Source: Deinococcus radiodurans R1 = ATCC 13939 = DSM 20539 (GTDB lineage: Bacteria > Deinococcota > Deinococci > Deinococcales > Deinococcaceae). Taken from it: a stretch of 32,000 nt of DNA. How positions within the stretch are numbered: the first letter of the stretch is position 1; each line of letters opens with the position of its first letter. Shown piece by piece: positions 2,391 through 15,126 of the stretch. The stretch lies in the NCBI RefSeq assembly GCF_000008565.1, contig NC_001263.1, positions 1,062,928-1,094,927 of the forward strand. The letters are read 5' to 3'. Made by a program: the position numbers and the translations under genes. The notes under the pieces are model-generated. The model was not told the origin of the DNA. It searched no databases and was given only the letters and a program-made list of their open reading frames with translations.

Positions 2391-3698
2391 TCAGGGCGTC
2401 AGCCGGTGCCGGTCACGCGGGAAAGCGCGGGCATAGCGCACGTTGGCGATGCCGAGCAGCTTGGCGGTCAGTCGCTCGGCGCCGATGGCGAAGCCGCCGT
2501 GCGGGGGCATCCCGTATTTGAAGACCTCGGTGTAGCCCTCCAGCGATTCGGGTTTGAGTTTGTACGCCGCGATGGAGTCCATCAGCATCCCGTAGTCGTG
2601 GATGCGCTGCCCGCCCGAGGTGATTTCGATGCCCCGGAACAGCAGGTCGAAGCCGCGCGTCACTTCACCGTTCACGCTGCCGTCCTCGTTCAGTTCGGGG
2701 TGCGCATAGAAGGGCCGGGCGGCGCGCGGGTACTTCGTCACGAACACGAAGTCGCTGCCCTCGGTTTCGGCAAAATGCTGCGAGAGCAGGCGCTCGGCTT
2801 CGGGGTCGAGGTCTTTGCCGCCGACCGGGTGGCCGTATTTTTCCGTCACCAGTTGCCGGGCGTCCATCAGCGTGATGCGGGGAATGTGCGCCGGCACGTC
2901 GGGAATCGTCGCGCCCAGCAGCTCAAACTCGGCCTGCGAGGTGGCCCGCAGCCGCTCCATGATGCTCGCCAGCAGGCGGTTCTCGAGGCCCATCACGTCT
3001 TCCTCGTCCTCAATGAAGCCCATTTCCACGTCGAGCGACAGGTATTCGTTGAGGTGACGGCTGGTGGCGTGCTCCTCGGCGCGGTAGACGGCGGCGACTT
3101 CGAAGACGCGCTCGAACACGCCGACCATAATCTGCTTGTAGAGCTGCGGGCTCTGCGCGAGGTAGGCCGGGTGCCCGAAATAGTCGATGGGGAAGAGGTT
3201 CGCCCCGCCTTCCGCGCCCGCCGACACGATTTTGGGCGTGCTGATTTCGGTAAAGCCCTCGCCGCGCAGGTGCGCCCGGAAGGCGTCCACCAGTTCGGCC
3301 TGCACCTTGAGCGCCGCCCGCTCCTTGAGCCCGCGCACCGTCACCACGCGGTAGTCGAGCATCGTTTCGGGGTTGACGTTCCACTCCATTTTGGGGATTT
3401 CCACCGGGGTGGCCTCGGTCGCCGCCGAGATGACGCGGAAGTCTTCCACCTGCACCTCGAAGCCGCCGGGCGCTTTGGGGTGGGCCTTGACCTTGCCGAC
3501 GACTTCCACGCTGCTCTCGGCCAGGGGAAGGGTCAGGCCGCTGCCCACGCACTGGGTCACGCCGGTCACGTCGCGCAGCACCAAAAATTGCACGCCCCCC
3601 AGGTCGCGGCGGGCGTGGACGAAGCCTTGAAGTTTAACGGTCTGCCCCTCATGTTGGGGCAGTTCACGGGTCAGCGTGCGTTTGAGTGGGCTGGTCAT
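2391..3698 (-). CDS. aspS: aspartyl-tRNA synthetase, archaeal/eukaryal-type (435 aa, no bacterial insertion domain); AspRS2-like
   Basis: It has an OB-fold N-terminus and class II motifs (FRAEEHATSRHLNEY, GGFAIGAERL). The ATG at 3698 is preceded by AAGGAGA (rc of 3703-3709). The longer ORF-track start at 3845 runs through the leader and terminator and is rejected. Confidence 0.93.
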   Translation of the reverse strand: MTSPLKRTLTRELPQHEGQTVKLQGFVHARRDLGGVQFLVLRDVTGVTQCVGSGLTLPLAESSVEVVGKVKAHPKAPGGFEVQVEDFRVISAATEATPVEIPKMEWNVNPETMLDYRVVTVRGLKERAALKVQAELVDAFRAHLRGEGFTEISTPKIVSAGAEGGANLFPIDYFGHPAYLAQSPQLYKQIMVGVFERVFEVAAVYRAEEHATSRHLNEYLSLDVEMGFIEDEEDVMGLENRLLASIMERLRATSQAEFELLGATIPDVPAHIPRITLMDARQLVTEKYGHPVGGKDLDPEAERLLSQHFAETEGSDFVFVTKYPRAARPFYAHPELNEDGSVNGEVTRGFDLLFRGIEITSGGQRIHDYGMLMDSIAAYKLKPESLEGYTEVFKYGMPPHGGFAIGAERLTAKLLGIANVRYARAFPRDRHRLTP

Positions 3699-3715
3699 GA
3701 GTCTCTCCTTGAACG

Positions 3716-3746
3716 AAAAACCCCCGCCGGGGTGGGCGGGGGCGCG
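3716..3746 (-). terminator. intrinsic terminator inside the aspS 5' leader (candidate attenuator)
   Basis: Minus strand: GCGCCCCCGCC-CACCCC-GGCGGGGG-TTTTT. This is an 8-bp all-GC stem, a 6-nt loop and a U5 tract, ending 6 nt before the aspS RBS. Confidence 0.75.
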
Positions 3747-3766
3747 GCCATACGACGAGGCGTCCC

Positions 3767-3808
3767 CTAGCGGGAATCGTCGTTGTCGTTGTTCAGTGCC
3801 GCGAACAT
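3767..3808 (-). CDS. candidate leader peptide MFAALNNDNDDSR (13 codons, six consecutive Asn/Asp codons)
   Basis: ATG TTC GCG GCA CTG AAC AAC GAC AAC GAC GAT TCC CGC TAG on the minus strand. The ATG lies 7 nt downstream of a TACACT -10 box (leaderless geometry). The stop abuts the antiterminator/terminator segments. Confidence 0.55.
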   Translation of the reverse strand: MFAALNNDNDDSR

Positions 3809-3815
3809 GGTGCAG

Positions 3816-3845
3816 AGTGTAGCCGCCGCAGCGCAGCGGGGTCAA
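3816..3845 (-). promoter_or_regulatory. sigma-70-type promoter TTGACC-18 nt-TACACT driving the aspS leader
   Basis: The rc of ggtcaa (3840-3845) is TTGACC and the rc of agtgta (3816-3821) is TACACT, with an 18-nt spacer. It lies between the MFS stop (3899) and the leader terminator. Confidence 0.65.
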
Positions 3846-3898
3846 AGGGGGCGGCTAGGCAGGGGGGAGTGAGGAAAAAATTTGGTTTGCGGACTCCC

Positions 3899-5182
3899 TC
3901 ACCCCGCCTTCCGCACCTCCGGTACGTTGCGGACCAGCACCACGCCGAGCAGGAAAAACAGCGCCGCGCTGCCGAAGACGAGCACATACCCGAAGTTGTC
4001 GCCGTGCCGGTTGCCCCAGTCGAGGAGTGCGCCCATCGGCAGGTTGACGAACTGCGGCGCGACGAAGGCGACGTGCCAGATGCCCATGTCGCGGGCGTAG
4101 CTGCTGCGGCTCGGCATGGCGTCGGCGCCCAGCGCCCAGTCCACGCTGGTAAACGCCCCGAAGCCCAAGCCGAAGCAAAACGCCAGCAGCAGCGCGAAGG
4201 TGAAGCTCGGCGCGACGAGCAGCAGCAGCGCCGTGACCGTCATGACCGTGCCTGCGAAATAAATGACCGGCTTGCGCCCGATGCGGTCACTCAGCCGCCC
4301 GCCCACCACGGCGGAGATGATGGACGCGATGACGATGCACGCGAGCAGCAGGGAACTGCTCATCACCGGGTCTTTTTGCCGCAGCACGTCGCCTGCGTAG
4401 AACTGCAAAAACGGCTGCACGCTGTACTGCCCGAGTGCGAACAGCACCCGCGTGATAAACACCCATTTGAACGGCGCGTAGGCGAACAGCTCGCGCCAGG
4501 GGAGCACCTCACCCGGCGCGGCGGGGGCCACCGCTTCGGCCTGCTCCACCACCCCCCGGATAGTGATAACTGCCGCCACGAGCAGCAGCGCCGCCATCAG
4601 CACAAAGGGGAGGCTCGCCCCGTAGTGGCTGCCGATGGCGACGCCCGCCGCCGCGCCCAGCAGTTGCCCCAGCGCTTGCAAGGTGCCCATCGCCCCGCTG
4701 TAGCGCCCGCGCTGCTCCGGCGGCACGAGCTGCGGAATCAGGGCCGAATACGGCGCGGTGGCGTAGTTGTTGCCGAACTGCACCAGCACGAAGCCGAGCA
4801 CGTATACCCAGAAGCCCGTACTCCCGGCGAGCAGGCCCACCGCCGCGCCCATCACCGCCAGCCCCGCCACGTTGATGCCCACGCCCAGGCGCAGGTAAGG
4901 CAGCCGCCGCCCCGTCTTGTCCGAGTGCGCCCCCACCAGCGGCGGCACGACCAGCGCAATCGCCGCGCCGATGGCCCCCAGCAGCCCCAGGTACGTGCCC
5001 TTGTGCGCCGCGCCCATGAACCCCACCACATGCGCAGGCATGTAGATGGTCAGCAGCATCAGCCACAGGAAGGCCGTTCCGAACCAGAACGCCGACAGCA
5101 CCCAGGGGCTGGGCAATGGGGGGCTGGGCAACGGGGAATGGGGCAAGGCAGCGGCGGGCCGCGCAGCAGGAGGAAGTGTCAT
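3899..5182 (-). CDS. MFS transporter
   Basis: About 12 hydrophobic segments, with MFS motif-A-like loops in both halves ([12 protein letters not shown] and [12 protein letters not shown]). I chose the ATG at 5182 (MTLPPAARP) because the longer ORF start would overlap the upstream GNAT gene. Confidence 0.88.
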
Positions 5183-5207
5183 GTGGGGAACAGTGTAGGG
5201 AGTTGCG

Positions 5208-6200
5208 TCAGTCCTGTGCCAACGTCCGAACCTGCTCCCCGAGGCCGCCCCACACCATCTCAATGAACGCCGGTTCGGGCTGGAACCCCAGCCGTGTGTT
5301 GATGGCGAGCATGGGCGCGTTGGCGGTCGCGTTGTGGGTCACGACCCGGCGGATGCCCTGGGCGTGCGCGAGGTTCAGCGAGTGGCGTTTGAGCGCCAGC
5401 GCCAGCCCCCGGCGACGGTGCGCGCGGGCGGTGCCGGTCAGGCCGGTGTTCAGCGCGTGCGGGTCGGCGAGGTCGCGCCACAGTTCGGTGAGCGCCGCCA
5501 CCTCGCCCGCCTGCGTGACTGCCAGCCAGAGGCCGTCCGGGAAGAAGGTGGGGTGCTGCACGTAGGCCCGAATGTCGTCCAGGCTGTACGGCTGCGCGGG
5601 AATGCGGCGCGGCTCGTCGGCGCGGGCCTCGTTGAAGGTGCGGCGGAAGGCGCCCAGCGCGGGCGTCTCCCCGAGGTCGGCCACGAAGTCCGGCAGGCTC
5701 CGCAGGCGGTATCCGGCGGGCAGGTCGGCGGGTTGCGACGTCCAGGTGGTCAAGTCCAGGACGTTGGTGAACTCGCGTTCCAGTTCGCTGAACCCGCGCG
5801 CTTGCAGGAAGGCGACGGCGTGCGGCTCGTCCTCCCGCGCGCCGGCCAGCACTTCGCGGGCGCCGCGTTCCTTCAGATGGGTGCGTACCGTCGCCGCCAG
5901 CACCGCGCCGACACCCCGTCGCCCGTGCTCCGGCGGCACTGTGACCGTGACGTTGTAGCGGTCGGGCTGGTGCGACCCGGCCCACTGCGTGACACCCGCG
6001 AAGCCCACGATTTTACTGCCGCGCTCGGCCACCCACTGCGCCAGGTGCAGGCCCTTGGGGTGGGTGCGGGTGTTCTCGGCGGCGACCCGCAGTTGCTCGG
6101 CGGTCACCGTCTGGCCGGGCCGCGCGGCGGTGAGGACGGCCCCGACCGCCGGATAATCGGCTTCCGTCGCTTCTCTGATGTGAACTGTCCTGTCGTTCAT
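5208..6200 (-). CDS. two-domain GNAT N-acetyltransferase (paralogue 1)
   Basis: It has two acetyl-CoA-binding motifs ([10 protein letters not shown] and [11 protein letters not shown]). The ATG at 6200 overlaps the stop of the upstream paralogue (ATGA). Confidence 0.85.
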
Positions 6201-14700: not shown

Positions 14701-14726
14701 AAAAAACCCCGCCCAGGCAGGCGGGG
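14701..14726 (-). terminator. intrinsic terminator of the small Thr-rich protein gene
   Basis: Minus strand: CCCCGCC-TGCCTG-GGCGGGG-TTTTTT. Confidence 0.8.
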
Positions 14727-15097: not shown

Positions 15098-15126
15098 AAA
15101 AAAGCCGCCCCCAGGGGAGGAGGCGG
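15098..15126 (-). terminator. intrinsic terminator after hbd
   Basis: Minus strand: CCGCCTCC-TCCCCT-GGGGGCGG-C-TTTTTT (8 bp including one G-U pair). Confidence 0.7.

What the first reader, a model, noticed from the sequence alone, without database searches (positions are those of the whole stretch)
3716..3845. Leaderless Asn/Asp-rich leader peptide with terminator/antiterminator upstream of archaeal-type aspS: candidate ribosome-mediated attenuator
What the minus strand shows:
- TTGACC (3845-3840), 18 nt, TACACT (3821-3816), 7 nt, then ATG (3808).
- That ATG opens ATG TTC GCG GCA CTG AAC AAC GAC AAC GAC GAT TCC CGC TAG = MFAALNNDNDDSR, which has six consecutive Asn/Asp codons.
- Directly after the stop comes GGGACGCC-TCGTCGT-ATGGCC-GCGCCCCCGCC-CACCCC-GGCGGGGG-TTTTT, then AAGGAGA and the aspS ATG (3698).

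Possible pairings:
- 1:2 pairs ACGACGA, inside codons 9-11, with TCGTCGT (3758-3752).
- 2:3 pairs GGGG(A)CGC, beginning with the G of the stop codon, with GCGCCCC (3745-3739). This sequesters half of the terminator's 5' arm.
- 3:4 pairs CCCCCGCC with GGCGGGGG and is followed by U5. This is the terminator (3742-3716).

The promoter sits between the upstream MFS stop (3899) and this terminator. Every transcript from it must therefore pass the terminator to reach aspS.

Established knowledge: a 435-aa AspRS lacking the bacterial insertion domain is the archaeal type. In Deinococcus this enzyme (AspRS2) is the non-discriminating one. It makes Asp-tRNA(Asn) for tRNA-dependent asparagine synthesis.

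Inference: this looks like trp/pheM-style attenuation.
- A ribosome stalled on Asn/Asp codons covers segment 1 and leaves 2 free to pair with 3, giving read-through.
- A ribosome that reaches the stop covers GGGGACGC, so 3:4 terminates transcription.
- Sensing both Asp and Asn codons fits the dual role of this enzyme.

I do not know of a description of such a leader for this gene.
Basis: partly seen in the sequence, partly recalled or inferred. Interest (0 to 1): 0.85.

Follow-up and report, generated by a model that had tools for sequence, protein, structure and literature searches.

The report
Asn/Asp leader-peptide attenuator of aspS2
A tiny upstream gene packed with asparagine and aspartate codons, followed by a switchable transcription stop signal, most likely lets Deinococcus radiodurans and most of its phylum make more of the enzyme that starts tRNA-bound asparagine synthesis when charged tRNA runs low. 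This is a new example of a well-known type of switch.

Summary

- **Architecture:** The layout is a -10 box 6-10 nt before an ATG, a short ORF with a position-fixed Asn/Asp codon run, a G-rich segment at or after the stop codon that complements the terminator 5' arm, and then a terminator before aspS2.
- **Distribution:** It recurs in 71 of 81 Deinococcota aspS2 loci (Deinococcus, Trueperaceae, Meiothermus/Calidithermus, Thermus).
- **Specificity:** In 355 kb of control DNA, all 56 short ORFs with an N/D run plus a terminator lie directly upstream of aspS2, and none lie elsewhere.
- **Independence from neighbours:** Upstream neighbour genes fall into 39 unrelated clusters in 62 loci.
- **Folding:** Masked folding gives an antiterminator with a stalled ribosome (-14.2 kcal/mol). 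With a ribosome at the stop codon, or with no ribosome, the terminator is left free to form.

One correction is needed. The conserved 1:2 hairpin is CG(A)UCCCC-GCUA-GGGGACG, which covers the Asp-Pro codons and the stop codon.

The weak points are that there is no two-sided covariation within the genus, no transcript data, and no T-run after the hairpin in Thermus.

The class is known. De Groot et al. 2014 predicted 14 leaderless leader peptides in D. deserti, and I could not read their list. I found no description of an Asn/Asp leader for aspS2. My verdict is a new member of a known kind.

The parts
3854..3862 (-). Conserved CTGCCTAGC motif about 9 nt upstream of the -35. Its function is unknown and it may not be part of the attenuator itself.
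   Evidence: A CTAG-centred motif sits at the same place in most Deinococcus loci. The exact motif occurs once in the window, and the count of 1-mismatch matches equals chance.
3840..3845 (-). -35-like hexamer TTGACC
   Evidence: Found by the consensus scan. A TTG-type hexamer lies 15-20 nt upstream of the -10 in 65 of 66 leader-bearing loci.
3816..3821 (-). -10 hexamer TACACT (TAnnnT type)
   Evidence: Found by the consensus scan. In the 24 Deinococcus leaders it ends 6 nt (2 loci), 7 nt (16) or 8 nt (6) before the leader ATG. This is the geometry of leaderless mRNAs in D. deserti (PMC4007540).
3767..3808 (-). Leaderless leader ORF MFAALNNDNDDSR plus its TAG stop. The ATG at 3808 is the predicted transcription start.
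   Evidence: An ORF of 8-30 codons is kept in frame in 66 curated loci.
3776..3793 (-). Regulatory codon run AAC AAC GAC AAC GAC GAT (codons 6-11)
   Evidence: In the stop-anchored codon table for Deinococcus, Asn or Asp occupies positions -8, -7, -5, -4 and -3 in 20, 19, 23, 24 and 22 of 24 loci, and all four codons are used.
3772..3779 (-). Segment 1 core, CGAUUCCC (the end of the Asp codon, then the Asp and Ser/Pro codons)
   Evidence: It appears in the RNAalifold consensus hairpin. It is paired with segment 2 in 97.5% of cells, against 46-59% when the partner is slid.
3777..3783 (-). ACGACGA, a window-specific outer extension of segment 1. It pairs with 3758-3752.
   Evidence: Present in the window MFE structure. 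It is not conserved in alignment A1.
3760..3767 (-). Segment 2, GGGGACGC, which begins with the G of the stop codon. It pairs either with segment 1 or with segment 3.
   Evidence: It is nearly invariant in 23 Deinococcus sequences, while the spacer after it varies. The pairings were counted.
3752..3758 (-). UCGUCGU, the window-specific partner of 3783-3777
3735..3745 (-). Segment 3, GCGCCCCCGCC. Positions 3745-3739 pair with segment 2 as the antiterminator. Positions 3743-3735 form the terminator 5' arm.
3720..3728 (-). Segment 4, GGCGGGGGU, the terminator 3' arm
   Evidence: the 3:4 hairpin is -20.0 kcal/mol. A compensatory A-U to C-G change occurs in this stem among Deinococcus species.
3716..3720 (-). 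U5 tract of the intrinsic terminator
3704..3710 (-). Shine-Dalgarno sequence AAGGAGA of aspS
   Evidence: AGGAG-type sequences lie before the aspS start in the other loci.
2391..3698 (-). aspS2, the archaeal-type non-discriminating aspartyl-tRNA synthetase (435 aa). This is the regulated gene and it is monocistronic.
   Evidence: It matches NF003483 at 562.8 bits. The gene downstream is convergent.

Best explanation
This is a ribosome-mediated (leader-peptide) transcription attenuator. It controls aspS2, the non-discriminating AspRS that makes Asp-tRNA(Asn) for tRNA-dependent asparagine synthesis.

**Proposed sequence of events (inferred)**
1. Transcription starts at or next to the A of ATG 3808, so the leader mRNA has no 5' UTR. 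A ribosome starts translating the 13-codon ORF as soon as it emerges.
2. The RNA can form three mutually exclusive helices.
 - 1:2 pairs CGAUUCCC with GGGGACG, with the stop codon in the loop.
 - 2:3 pairs GGGG(A)CGC with GCGCCCC. This is the antiterminator.
 - 3:4 pairs GCCCCCGCC with GGCGGGGGU and is followed by U5. This is the terminator.
3. When Asn-tRNA(Asn) and Asp-tRNA(Asp) are plentiful, the ribosome runs to the UAG. There it covers segment 2, so 3:4 forms and RNA polymerase stops about 20 nt before aspS2.
4. When charged tRNA(Asn) or tRNA(Asp) is scarce, the ribosome stalls in the AAC/GAC run, 3-8 codons before the stop. It covers segment 1 but leaves segment 2 free. 2:3 forms first, the terminator is blocked and aspS2 is transcribed.
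5. With no ribosome at all, 1:2 forms and the terminator acts.

**What is shown.** The sequence parts exist. They are conserved across the phylum. The Asn/Asp codons are position-specific. The helices can pair in register, and folding depends on the masked footprint as described.

**What is inferred.** The transcription start, actual translation of the ORF, stalling, and the effect on aspS2 mRNA levels.
For: **Anatomy.** All parts are present at the stated coordinates. There is no room for a promoter between the terminator (which ends at 3716) and the aspS ATG (3698), so any aspS transcript has to cross the terminator.

**Conservation.** The same architecture occurs in 71 of 81 Deinococcota aspS2 loci.

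**Codon-level selection.**
- Asn/Asp is fixed at set positions relative to the stop codon in three clades, with synonymous C/T variation at the third position and N<->D exchange at the first.
- ORF length varies from 12 to 20 codons in Deinococcus, 15 to 30 in the Trueperaceae type and 8 to 10 in Thermaceae, and it stays in frame throughout.

**Specificity.** Of 2,270 short ATG-ORFs in 355 kb scanned on both strands, 72 have at least 3 consecutive N/D codons. Of those, 56 are followed by a terminator, and all 56 lie directly upstream of aspS.

**Independence from neighbours.** Upstream genes fall into 39 unrelated clusters in 62 loci.

**Structure.**
- 1:2 is paired in 97.5% of cells and 2:3 in 98.7%, against 45-71% for slid partners.
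- The terminator stem shows a compensatory A-U/C-G pair.
- Different clades use different segment 2/3 sequences: GGGGACGC/GCGCCCC in Deinococcus, CUCGGGG/CCCCGAG in the Trueperaceae type, and G5-6/C5-7 in Thermaceae. In every clade segment 2 sits at or just after the stop codon.

**Ribosome-position dependence.**
- For the window, a stall mask gives a 2:3 MFE of -14.2 kcal/mol. A mask at the stop codon gives -3.0 with no antiterminator. Free RNA gives 1:2 at -25.0.
- In the Trueperaceae type, the terminator arm is sequestered with probability 0.83 when stalled and 0.34 at the stop.

**Energy hierarchy.** 1:2 core is -6.9 (-15.3 with the extension), 2:3 is -12.9 and 3:4 is -20.0 kcal/mol.

**Leaderless geometry.** It matches the D. 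deserti dRNA-seq data, and the same paper predicts leaderless leader peptides for tRNA-synthetase genes (PMC4007540).

**Physiological logic.** D. radiodurans and T. thermophilus use this extra archaeal-type AspRS with GatCAB to synthesise Asn on tRNA(Asn) (PMC4206432).
Against: - There are no transcript data here: no transcription start, no roughly 93-nt terminated RNA, and no expression response.
- Within Deinococcus, helices 1:2 and 2:3 show no change on both sides. Only C->U opposite G is seen, and 5 of the 7 pairs in 2:3 never vary. They are supported by conservation and register, not by covariation.
- The duplex-energy test for 2:3 is not distinguishable from shuffles in Deinococcus (0.33) and is only marginal elsewhere (0.055 and 0.084).
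- 2:3 covers only about half of the terminator 5' arm, so the terminator could displace it.
- In Thermaceae the ORF is so short that a ribosome stalled on the last Asn codon may already touch segment 2. The stall versus stop difference there is small, 0.44 against 0.34.
- The four Thermus loci (genus Thermus) have the hairpin but no T-run.
- One Deinococcus MAG (L018) keeps segments 2-4 but has lost the N/D run.
Confidence: 0.8

Rival explanations
1. The hairpin is simply the intrinsic terminator of the upstream MFS transporter gene. The short ORF and promoter-like hexamers in front of it are chance features of a GC-rich spacer.
For: The MFS gene (3899-5263, minus strand) is co-directional and ends 156 nt upstream of the hairpin. 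The hairpin could also stop read-through from that gene.
Against: The element travels with aspS and not with the upstream gene, since upstream neighbours fall into 39 unrelated clusters in 62 loci. The ORF, its N/D run and the promoter spacing are conserved across the phylum. No such combination occurs anywhere else in 355 kb. No promoter can fit between the terminator and aspS.
Confidence: 0.02
2. The leader is a terminator/antiterminator switch set by a trans-acting factor rather than by ribosome position. Candidates are AspRS2 itself, uncharged tRNA, or another RNA-binding protein. In this reading the ORF is incidental, or serves only to load ribosomes.
For: Segments 1-3 are conserved at the nucleotide level more strictly than a peptide would require, and the Pro->Ser change (CCC->UCC) preserves pairing. 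Autoregulation of synthetase genes through leader RNAs is known in other systems, for example E. coli thrS (from my own knowledge).
Against: Positions outside any helix (-8, -7 and -5 in Deinococcus; -11 to -9 in the Trueperaceae type) are restricted to the four RAY codons, with synonymous variation, and RNA structure does not explain that. The reading frame is kept through many length changes. There is no T-box or other Rfam match. At about 90 nt the leader is too short for a T-box, and the 1:2 loop (GCUA) does not resemble an anticodon loop.
Confidence: 0.07
3. The leader ORF acts mainly on translation or mRNA stability of aspS2, for example by structure remodelling near the Shine-Dalgarno sequence or by reinitiation, and not on transcription termination. 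This would apply at least in some lineages.
For: In the four Thermus loci (genus Thermus) the hairpin has no T-run and sits a few nt before the Shine-Dalgarno sequence. In the window the terminator ends only 5 nt before AAGGAGA.
Against: In Deinococcus, the Trueperaceae type and Meiothermus/Calidithermus, the hairpin is a canonical GC-rich stem followed by T4-T8. The distance from terminator to aspS start varies from about 10 to over 100 nt, which does not fit a mechanism that depends on the Shine-Dalgarno sequence.
Confidence: 0.08
4. The short ORF encodes a functional small peptide (Asn/Asp-rich), and its position before aspS is unrelated to regulation.
For: The C-terminal motif N-N-x-[ND]-[ND]-D-[PS]-[RQ] is conserved within Deinococcus.
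Against: The N-terminal half and the length are not conserved. Thermaceae versions are only 8-10 residues. Between clades only the N/D codons are shared. The C-terminal residues coincide with the RNA helix 1:2.
Confidence: 0.02

Closest known systems
Classical leader-peptide attenuators of enteric bacteria (trpL, hisL, pheL, thrL, leuL, ilvL), and especially pheM upstream of pheST, which controls a tRNA-synthetase operon
   Same: It has a short ORF with clustered codons for the relevant amino acid, and three alternative helices (1:2, 2:3 and 3:4) with 3:4 as an intrinsic terminator. The stop codon sits next to segment 2. The energy hierarchy is similar. Like pheM, the target is a tRNA-synthetase gene.
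   Different: The leader ORF appears to be leaderless, with no Shine-Dalgarno sequence and the ATG at the predicted transcription start. It reads two amino acids, Asn and Asp. It controls an enzyme that doubles as the first step of an amino-acid biosynthetic pathway carried out on tRNA. It has no sequence or Rfam relationship to those families. A 2013 survey lists attenuators only for His, Leu, Thr and Trp, plus Ile/Val and Phe (PMC3766115).
Leaderless leader peptides predicted in Deinococcus deserti (de Groot et al. 2014, PMC4007540). [quoted passage not shown]
   Same: The genus is the same, and so is the layout: a TAnnnT -10 box directly before a 5'-AUG, a short ORF rich in the cognate residue, and then a leadered tRNA-synthetase gene with its own Shine-Dalgarno sequence.
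   Different: The main text does not mention aspS, Asn or Asp, and the list (their table S9) could not be read. That paper gives no alternative structures, no cross-species comparison and no phylum-wide distribution.
Polycysteine leaderless short ORFs in mycobacteria (bioRxiv 10.1101/834739)
   Same: A leaderless short ORF with a run of codons for one amino acid acts as an amino-acid-responsive attenuator of downstream genes.
   Different: The phylum and the amino acid differ. I saw only the title and abstract listing, so I did not compare the mechanistic details.
T-box riboswitches upstream of aspS, asnS and other synthetase genes in Firmicutes and some Deinococcus-Thermus genes
   Same: The regulatory goal is the same, which is to sense tRNA charging and control a synthetase gene through a terminator/antiterminator switch.
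   Different: There is no T-box match at any threshold. The leader is about 90 nt rather than 200-300 nt. Sensing is through translated codons and not through direct binding of tRNA.

Membership tests
Ribosome-mediated (leader-peptide) transcription attenuator | A short translatable ORF at the 5' end of the transcript, upstream of the regulated gene | tested here: met
   The 13-codon ORF 3808-3767 starts with an ATG 7 nt after the -10 box. An ORF is kept in frame in 66 curated loci despite lengths ranging from 8 to 30 codons. Translation itself was not tested.
Ribosome-mediated (leader-peptide) transcription attenuator | A cluster of codons for the amino acid(s) tied to the regulated gene | tested here: met
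   The window has six consecutive Asn/Asp codons. Asn/Asp codons are position-specific in three clades. The combination is exclusive to aspS upstream regions.
Ribosome-mediated (leader-peptide) transcription attenuator | An intrinsic terminator between the leader ORF and the structural gene | tested here: met
   A 9-bp stem with 8 G-C pairs followed by T5, at 3743-3716, with an energy of -20.0 kcal/mol. It is present in most loci. The exception is the genus Thermus, where the hairpin has no T-run.
Ribosome-mediated (leader-peptide) transcription attenuator | An antiterminator helix that shares bases with the terminator 5' arm, placed so that a ribosome at the stop codon prevents it from forming | tested here: met
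   GGGG(A)CGC (3767-3760) pairs with GCGCCCC (3745-3739), at -12.9 kcal/mol. It is paired in register in 98.7% of cells. It forms under a stall mask and is abolished under a stop-codon mask.
Ribosome-mediated (leader-peptide) transcription attenuator | Covariation that supports the alternative helices | tested here: inconclusive
   There are no two-sided changes in 1:2 or 2:3 within Deinococcus. There is one compensatory pair in 3:4. The stems differ in sequence between clades while keeping the same logic, but the duplex-energy test is weak.
Ribosome-mediated (leader-peptide) transcription attenuator | Read-through increases when the cognate charged tRNA is limiting | not testable with these tools
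   This needs reporter fusions, Northern blots or Term-seq under Asn/Asp limitation.
Leaderless leader peptides of Deinococcus (de Groot et al. 2014) | The transcription start is at, or within a few nt of, the A of the leader ATG, with a TAnnnT -10 box directly upstream | tested here: inconclusive
   The geometry is met, with spacings of 6-8 nt in 24 of 24 Deinococcus loci (reference geometry). The transcription start itself cannot be measured here.
Leaderless leader peptides of Deinococcus (de Groot et al. 2014) | Listed among the 14 D. deserti leader peptides (their supplementary table S9) | not testable with these tools
   The supplement is not held. The main text has no mention of aspS, Asp or Asn.
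T-box riboswitch | A match to the T-box covariance model (specifier loop and T-box sequence) | tested here: not met
   A search of Rfam release 15 at E-value up to 10 over 3500-4100 returned only eight chance-level hits, and none was a T-box.
Rfam amino-acid leader families (His, Leu, Thr and Trp leaders) | A match to any of these covariance models | tested here: not met
   No such hit was found.

The most novel reading that the evidence does not exclude
The leader is the feedback sensor of tRNA-dependent asparagine biosynthesis for a whole phylum. The ribosome can use only the end product, Asn-tRNA(Asn), and not the intermediate Asp-tRNA(Asn). The Asn codons would therefore report the combined output of ND-AspRS and GatCAB and set the level of the first enzyme. 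In effect this would be a biosynthetic-operon attenuator sitting on a tRNA-synthetase gene.

The codon mix was re-tuned between lineages. Asn-Asn dominates in three of the four Thermus loci (genus Thermus). Asp-Asp-Asn is typical of the Trueperaceae type and Calidithermus. Deinococcus has mixed N/D runs. L074 and L075 look like intermediates between types.

The genus Thermus may have swapped the read-out, since its hairpin has no U-tract.
Probability: 0.45. Interest if true: 0.6.

Novelty: new member of a known kind. Interest (0 to 1): 0.5.

Why it matters
AspRS2 together with GatCAB is how D. radiodurans and T. thermophilus synthesise asparagine on tRNA(Asn) (PMC4206432). In the literature I could search, I found nothing on how that pathway is regulated.

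A conserved Asn/Asp-codon attenuator would supply the missing feedback loop. It would add an amino-acid specificity (Asn/Asp) that is absent from catalogued attenuators. It would also give a clean, phylum-wide example of leader-peptide attenuation running on a leaderless mRNA, where 70S ribosome loading at a 5'-AUG must be coupled to a polymerase only tens of nucleotides ahead.

It is directly testable in a genetically tractable model strain. It could be added to RNA-family databases and to genome annotation, where the open aspS frame currently invites a wrong, extended start.

Tried and rejected
- **Rfam search.** A permissive search of the leader returned only chance-level hits.
- **Cognate versus cross-clade versus shuffled duplex energies for 2:3.** This does not discriminate, because all clades share G-run/C-run cores and GC-rich shuffles score nearly as well. 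I do not count it as support.
- **Within-genus covariation.** The helices are too conserved to show any.
- **Automatic terminator and ORF parser.** It missed long-loop and bulged stems and picked wrong ORFs in a few loci. I corrected these by eye and with curated peptide lists.
- **T-counts after hairpins.** These are distorted wherever my hairpin finder extended stems into the T-run, so I did not use them.
- **Strand calls for upstream neighbours.** These are unreliable in high-GC DNA because of shadow ORFs. I used only the clustering result.
- **Novelty checks that failed for technical reasons.**
 - Table S9 of PMC4007540 is not held.
 - Min et al. 2002 (PMC122407) is not held.
 - The original D. 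radiodurans sRNA catalogue paper did not turn up in my literature search.
- **The mechanical 484-aa aspS ORF starting at TTG 3845.** I considered and rejected it as the real gene. Relatives align from residues 1-7 of the 435-aa form, and a strong Shine-Dalgarno sequence precedes ATG 3698.
Full report
**1. The observation**

It runs TTGACC (3845-3840), 18 nt, TACACT (3821-3816), 7 nt, then ATG (3808). The ORF is ATG TTC GCG GCA CTG AAC AAC GAC AAC GAC GAT TCC CGC TAG, or MFAALNNDNDDSR*, at 3808-3767. After the stop come GGGGACGC (3767-3760), a spacer, GCGCCCCCGCC (3745-3735), CACCCC, GGCGGGGGT (3728-3720) with T5 (3720-3716), AAGGAGA (3710-3704) and the aspS ATG (3698).

- The consensus scan finds exactly one promoter-like site in 3400-4200, and it is this one. 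Shuffles give a mean of 0.1. The scan also finds the 9-bp terminator with 8 G-C pairs.
- The gene matches NF003483, aspartate--tRNA(Asn) ligase, at 562.8 bits against a cut-off of 353.
- Rfam has nothing for the leader even at E-value 10.
- The 114-nt leader folds better than shuffles, with z = -2.76.
- The identical protein is encoded on 2.65-Mb chromosomes CP031500.1 and CP150840.1. From my own knowledge of that accession I take these to be Deinococcus radiodurans R1.
- The gene downstream of aspS is convergent, so aspS is monocistronic.
- The aspS frame happens to stay open up to a TTG at 3845. That extension is mechanical. It is a different frame from the leader ORF, and relatives align from residues 1-7 of the 435-aa form.

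**2. Comparative evidence**

A scan of one genome per species returned 80 aspS2 loci. Of these, 23 are Deinococcus at 80-91% protein identity. Another 56 are other Deinococcota at about 60% (Trueperaceae, Thermus, Meiothermus, Calidithermus and MAGs). One is a Limnochordia outgroup.

Reading the upstream regions shows the same architecture in 71 of 81 sequences, counting the window.

| Clade | Leader peptide pattern | Segment 2 | Terminator 5' arm |
|---|---|---|---|
| Deinococcus | M[FI]AA..NN.[ND][ND]D[PS][RQ]* | GGGGACGC, starting at the G of the TAG stop | GCGCCCCCGAC (the window has GCGCCCCCGCC) |
| Trueperaceae type | M...DDN......LGA* | CUCGGGG, the Leu-Gly-Ala codons inside the ORF | CCCCGAG(G) |
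| Meiothermus/Calidithermus and other Thermaceae | 8-10 codons, such as MLRADNNL*, MLRRWDDNP*, MRGLLNNDR* | G5, 0-2 nt after the stop | GACCCCCG... |
| Thermus (genus) | MRPRLRNNER*, MCPRLLNNG*, MRLPQGNDA*, MRPRFLNNG* | G6, 0-3 nt after the stop | hairpin present but no T-run follows |

Ten loci lack the element:
- In four loci aspS abuts an unrelated upstream ORF (L027, L031, L032 and L049).
- Five are AT-rich lineages (L028, L041, L047, L051 and L053).
- One is the outgroup (L080).

One Deinococcus MAG (L018) keeps segments 2-4 but has lost the N/D run.

Two MAGs carry MFAAVPFNSDDDPRSRRLGA (L074) and MLADAPFGPDPDDDPRSRRLGA (L075). These look like intermediates between the Deinococcus and Trueperaceae forms, which argues for common descent.

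**3. Is the ORF under coding-type selection?**

I anchored the leaders on the stop codon.

| Clade | Codon positions before the stop | Loci with Asn or Asp at each position |
|---|---|---|
| Deinococcus | -8, -7, -5, -4, -3 | 20, 19, 23, 24, 22 of 24 |
| Trueperaceae type | -11, -10, -9 | 21, 22, 26 of 26 |
| Thermaceae | -4, -3, -2 | 13, 16, 14 of 16 |

- All four codons (AAC, AAT, GAC, GAT) are used at these positions.
- Several of these positions lie outside every proposed helix, so RNA structure alone does not explain the restriction to RAY codons.
- ORF length varies widely (12-20, 15-30 and 8-10 codons), yet the ATG stays in frame with the stop next to segment 2.
- The TAnnnT -10 box ends 6-8 nt before the ATG in all 24 Deinococcus leaders. 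The spacing is 7-8 nt in 23 of 26 Trueperaceae-type leaders and 9-10 nt in 15 of 16 Thermaceae leaders.
- In D. deserti, dRNA-seq placed 47% of mRNA starts exactly on the start codon, with this -10 motif directly upstream (PMC4007540).

**4. Negative controls**

A blind scan covered all the DNA I held, 355 kb on both strands.
- It found 2,270 ATG-ORFs of 7-30 codons.
- Of these, 72 had at least three consecutive N/D codons.
- Of those, 56 were followed by a terminator-like hairpin, and all 56 lie immediately upstream of aspS.

A codon-agnostic scan of the 32-kb window found only this one element combining a leaderless short ORF with a terminator.

The proteins encoded upstream of the element fall into 39 unrelated clusters in 62 loci. 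The element therefore belongs to aspS and not to the upstream gene. This removes the reading that it is the terminator of the MFS gene.

**5. RNA structures**

RNAalifold on 23 Deinococcus leaders (alignment A1) gives two helices. One is the terminator. The other is a hairpin, CG(A)UCCCC-GCUA-GGGGACG. Its 5' arm is the end of the N/D run plus the Pro/Ser codon, and its loop holds the stop codon. This is the conserved 1:2.

It is present in the window, partly present in its closest relative, and absent elsewhere.
- Counted on A1, 1:2 is paired in 97.5% of cells, against 46-59% when the partner is slid. All changes are C->U opposite G. These include the non-synonymous CCC->UCC (Pro->Ser) change, which keeps the pair.
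- 2:3 (GGGG(A)CGC with GCGCCCC) is paired in 98.7% of cells, against 45-71% slid. Five of its seven pairs never vary and none changes on both sides.
- The terminator has one compensatory pair, A-U in 13 sequences and C-G in 4.

Within the genus, then, the alternative helices rest on conservation and register and not on covariation.

Between clades the stems differ in sequence but keep the same layout. My formal test, which compared duplex energies for cognate, cross-clade and shuffled pairs, was weak. The fraction of shuffles at or below the cognate median was 0.33 for Deinococcus, 0.055 for the Trueperaceae type and 0.084 for Thermaceae. I do not count that test as support.

**6. Mechanism test by masked folding**

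I folded the nascent RNA up to the end of the terminator 5' arm, with a ribosome footprint forced single-stranded.

| Ribosome state (window) | Result | Energy (kcal/mol) |
|---|---|---|
| A site on the second-last N/D codon | MFE structure is the 2:3 antiterminator | -14.2 |
| Ribosome at the stop codon | Segment 2 is covered and no antiterminator forms | -3.0 |
| No ribosome | 1:2 forms and segment 3 is left free | -25.0 |

Median probabilities that the terminator arm is sequestered:

| Clade | Stalled | At stop |
|---|---|---|
| Trueperaceae type | 0.83 | 0.34 |
| Deinococcus | 0.39 | 0.13 |
| Thermaceae | 0.44 | 0.34 |

The Thermaceae difference is marginal. The ORF there is so short that the footprint of a ribosome on the last Asn codon reaches segment 2.

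Helix energies in the window are -6.9 for the 1:2 core (-15.3 with the extension), -12.9 for 2:3 and -20.0 for 3:4. Deinococcus medians are -9.0, -11.7 and -21.1. From my own knowledge, this is the usual hierarchy for classical attenuators.

**7. Best explanation**

This is a ribosome-mediated transcription attenuator. It reads Asn and Asp codons on a leaderless leader ORF and controls aspS2.

The logic fits the biology. D. radiodurans and T. thermophilus carry this extra archaeal-type AspRS and use it with GatCAB to make asparagine on tRNA(Asn) (PMC4206432). A shortage of Asn-tRNA(Asn) or Asp-tRNA(Asp) would then induce the enzyme that feeds both pools.

The anatomy, the conservation, the codon statistics and the position-dependent folding are shown. 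The transcription start, translation of the ORF, stalling and the effect on aspS2 expression are inferred.

**8. Rivals**

- The upstream-gene terminator reading is contradicted.
- A factor-dependent RNA switch with an incidental ORF cannot explain the RAY-codon restriction outside helices or the preservation of the frame.
- A translational read-out is possible for the genus Thermus, which has no T-run. It is unlikely elsewhere, because the hairpins are canonical terminators and lie at variable distances from aspS.
- A functional peptide is unlikely, because only the N/D codons are shared between clades.

**9. Comparison with what is known, and novelty**

In how it works, the element behaves like trp, his and pheM attenuators. 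It does not belong to any Rfam leader family or to the T-box family.

De Groot et al. 2014 reported the class, leaderless leader peptides upstream of Deinococcus tRNA-synthetase genes, for D. deserti. They predicted 14 cases and named cysS and trpEGD (PMC4007540). Their main text never mentions aspS, Asp or Asn, and the table listing the 14 is not available to me. The aspS2 leader may or may not be in that list.

- Nine literature searches found no description of an Asn/Asp attenuator or of aspS2 regulation.
- A 2013 survey lists amino-acid attenuators only for His, Leu, Thr and Trp, plus Ile/Val and Phe (PMC3766115).

I therefore rate it a new member of a known kind. The new content is the Asn/Asp specificity, the alternative structures, the corrected 1:2 helix and the phylum-wide distribution with clade-specific variants.

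**10. Verdict**

My confidence in the mechanism is about 0.8 and my interest score is 0.5. It is a well-supported and testable regulatory element with a clear physiological rationale, but it is not a new principle.

Noticed in passing
window 3854-3862 (minus strand): CTGCCTAGC lies about 9 nt upstream of the -35 hexamer. A CTAG-centred version is kept at the same position in most Deinococcus aspS2 loci. The exact motif is unique in the window, and the number of 1-mismatch matches equals chance. It may be a regulator site or an upstream promoter element. Its function is unknown.
   Followed up: partly
window 2391-3845 (minus strand): The aspS reading frame stays open 147 nt upstream of the real ATG, as far as a TTG that is the -35 hexamer itself. 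This gives a mechanical 484-aa ORF that overlaps the whole leader in another frame. A gene caller could pick the wrong start and hide the leader.
   Followed up: yes
L029, L034, L046 and L072 (Thermus species), about 20-110 nt upstream of aspS: The leader ORF (MRPRLRNNER, MCPRLLNNG, MRLPQGNDA, MRPRFLNNG), the G6 run after the stop and a strong GGCCCCCCCGG...CCGGGGGGGCC hairpin are all present. No T-run follows the hairpin, which sits just before the Shine-Dalgarno sequence. This suggests a different read-out in this genus.
   Followed up: partly
L027, L031, L032 and L049, positions about 1480-1503: These loci have no leader. aspS starts 5 nt after an unrelated ORF (134 aa in L031). That ORF ends in the conserved ...TGC AAT AAT CAC (CGT in L031) TGA, so two Asn codons sit just before its stop. 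I could not tell whether this is coincidence or a coupling device.
   Followed up: partly
L074 and L075, leader ORFs about 90-160 nt upstream of aspS: The peptides MFAAVPFNSDDDPRSRRLGA and MLADAPFGPDPDDDPRSRRLGA combine the Deinococcus-type start and DDDPR motif with the Trueperaceae-type ...RLGA* end. They look like evolutionary intermediates between the two leader types.
   Followed up: no
L018 (Deinococcus MAG), about 150-60 nt upstream of aspS: Segments 2-4 (GGGACGCC, GCGCCCCCGAC, GUCGGGGGCGC) are kept. The ORF reads MCAVAVSRRANFGH* with a single Asn, a TGA stop and no segment 1. This is either a decayed sensor or an assembly error.
   Followed up: no
window 14707-14726 and 15105-15126 (minus strand): Two strong terminator-like hairpins with long T-runs (CCCCGCC...GGCGGGG T6 and CCGCC...GGCGG T6) lie about 400 nt apart on the minus strand. 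They are unrelated to the finding.
   Followed up: no
window 2406-3770 and 3869-5266 (plus strand): Long antisense shadow ORFs of 454 and 465 aa lie opposite aspS and opposite the MFS gene. They are typical of high-GC DNA. They misled my automatic strand calls for neighbouring genes.
   Followed up: yes
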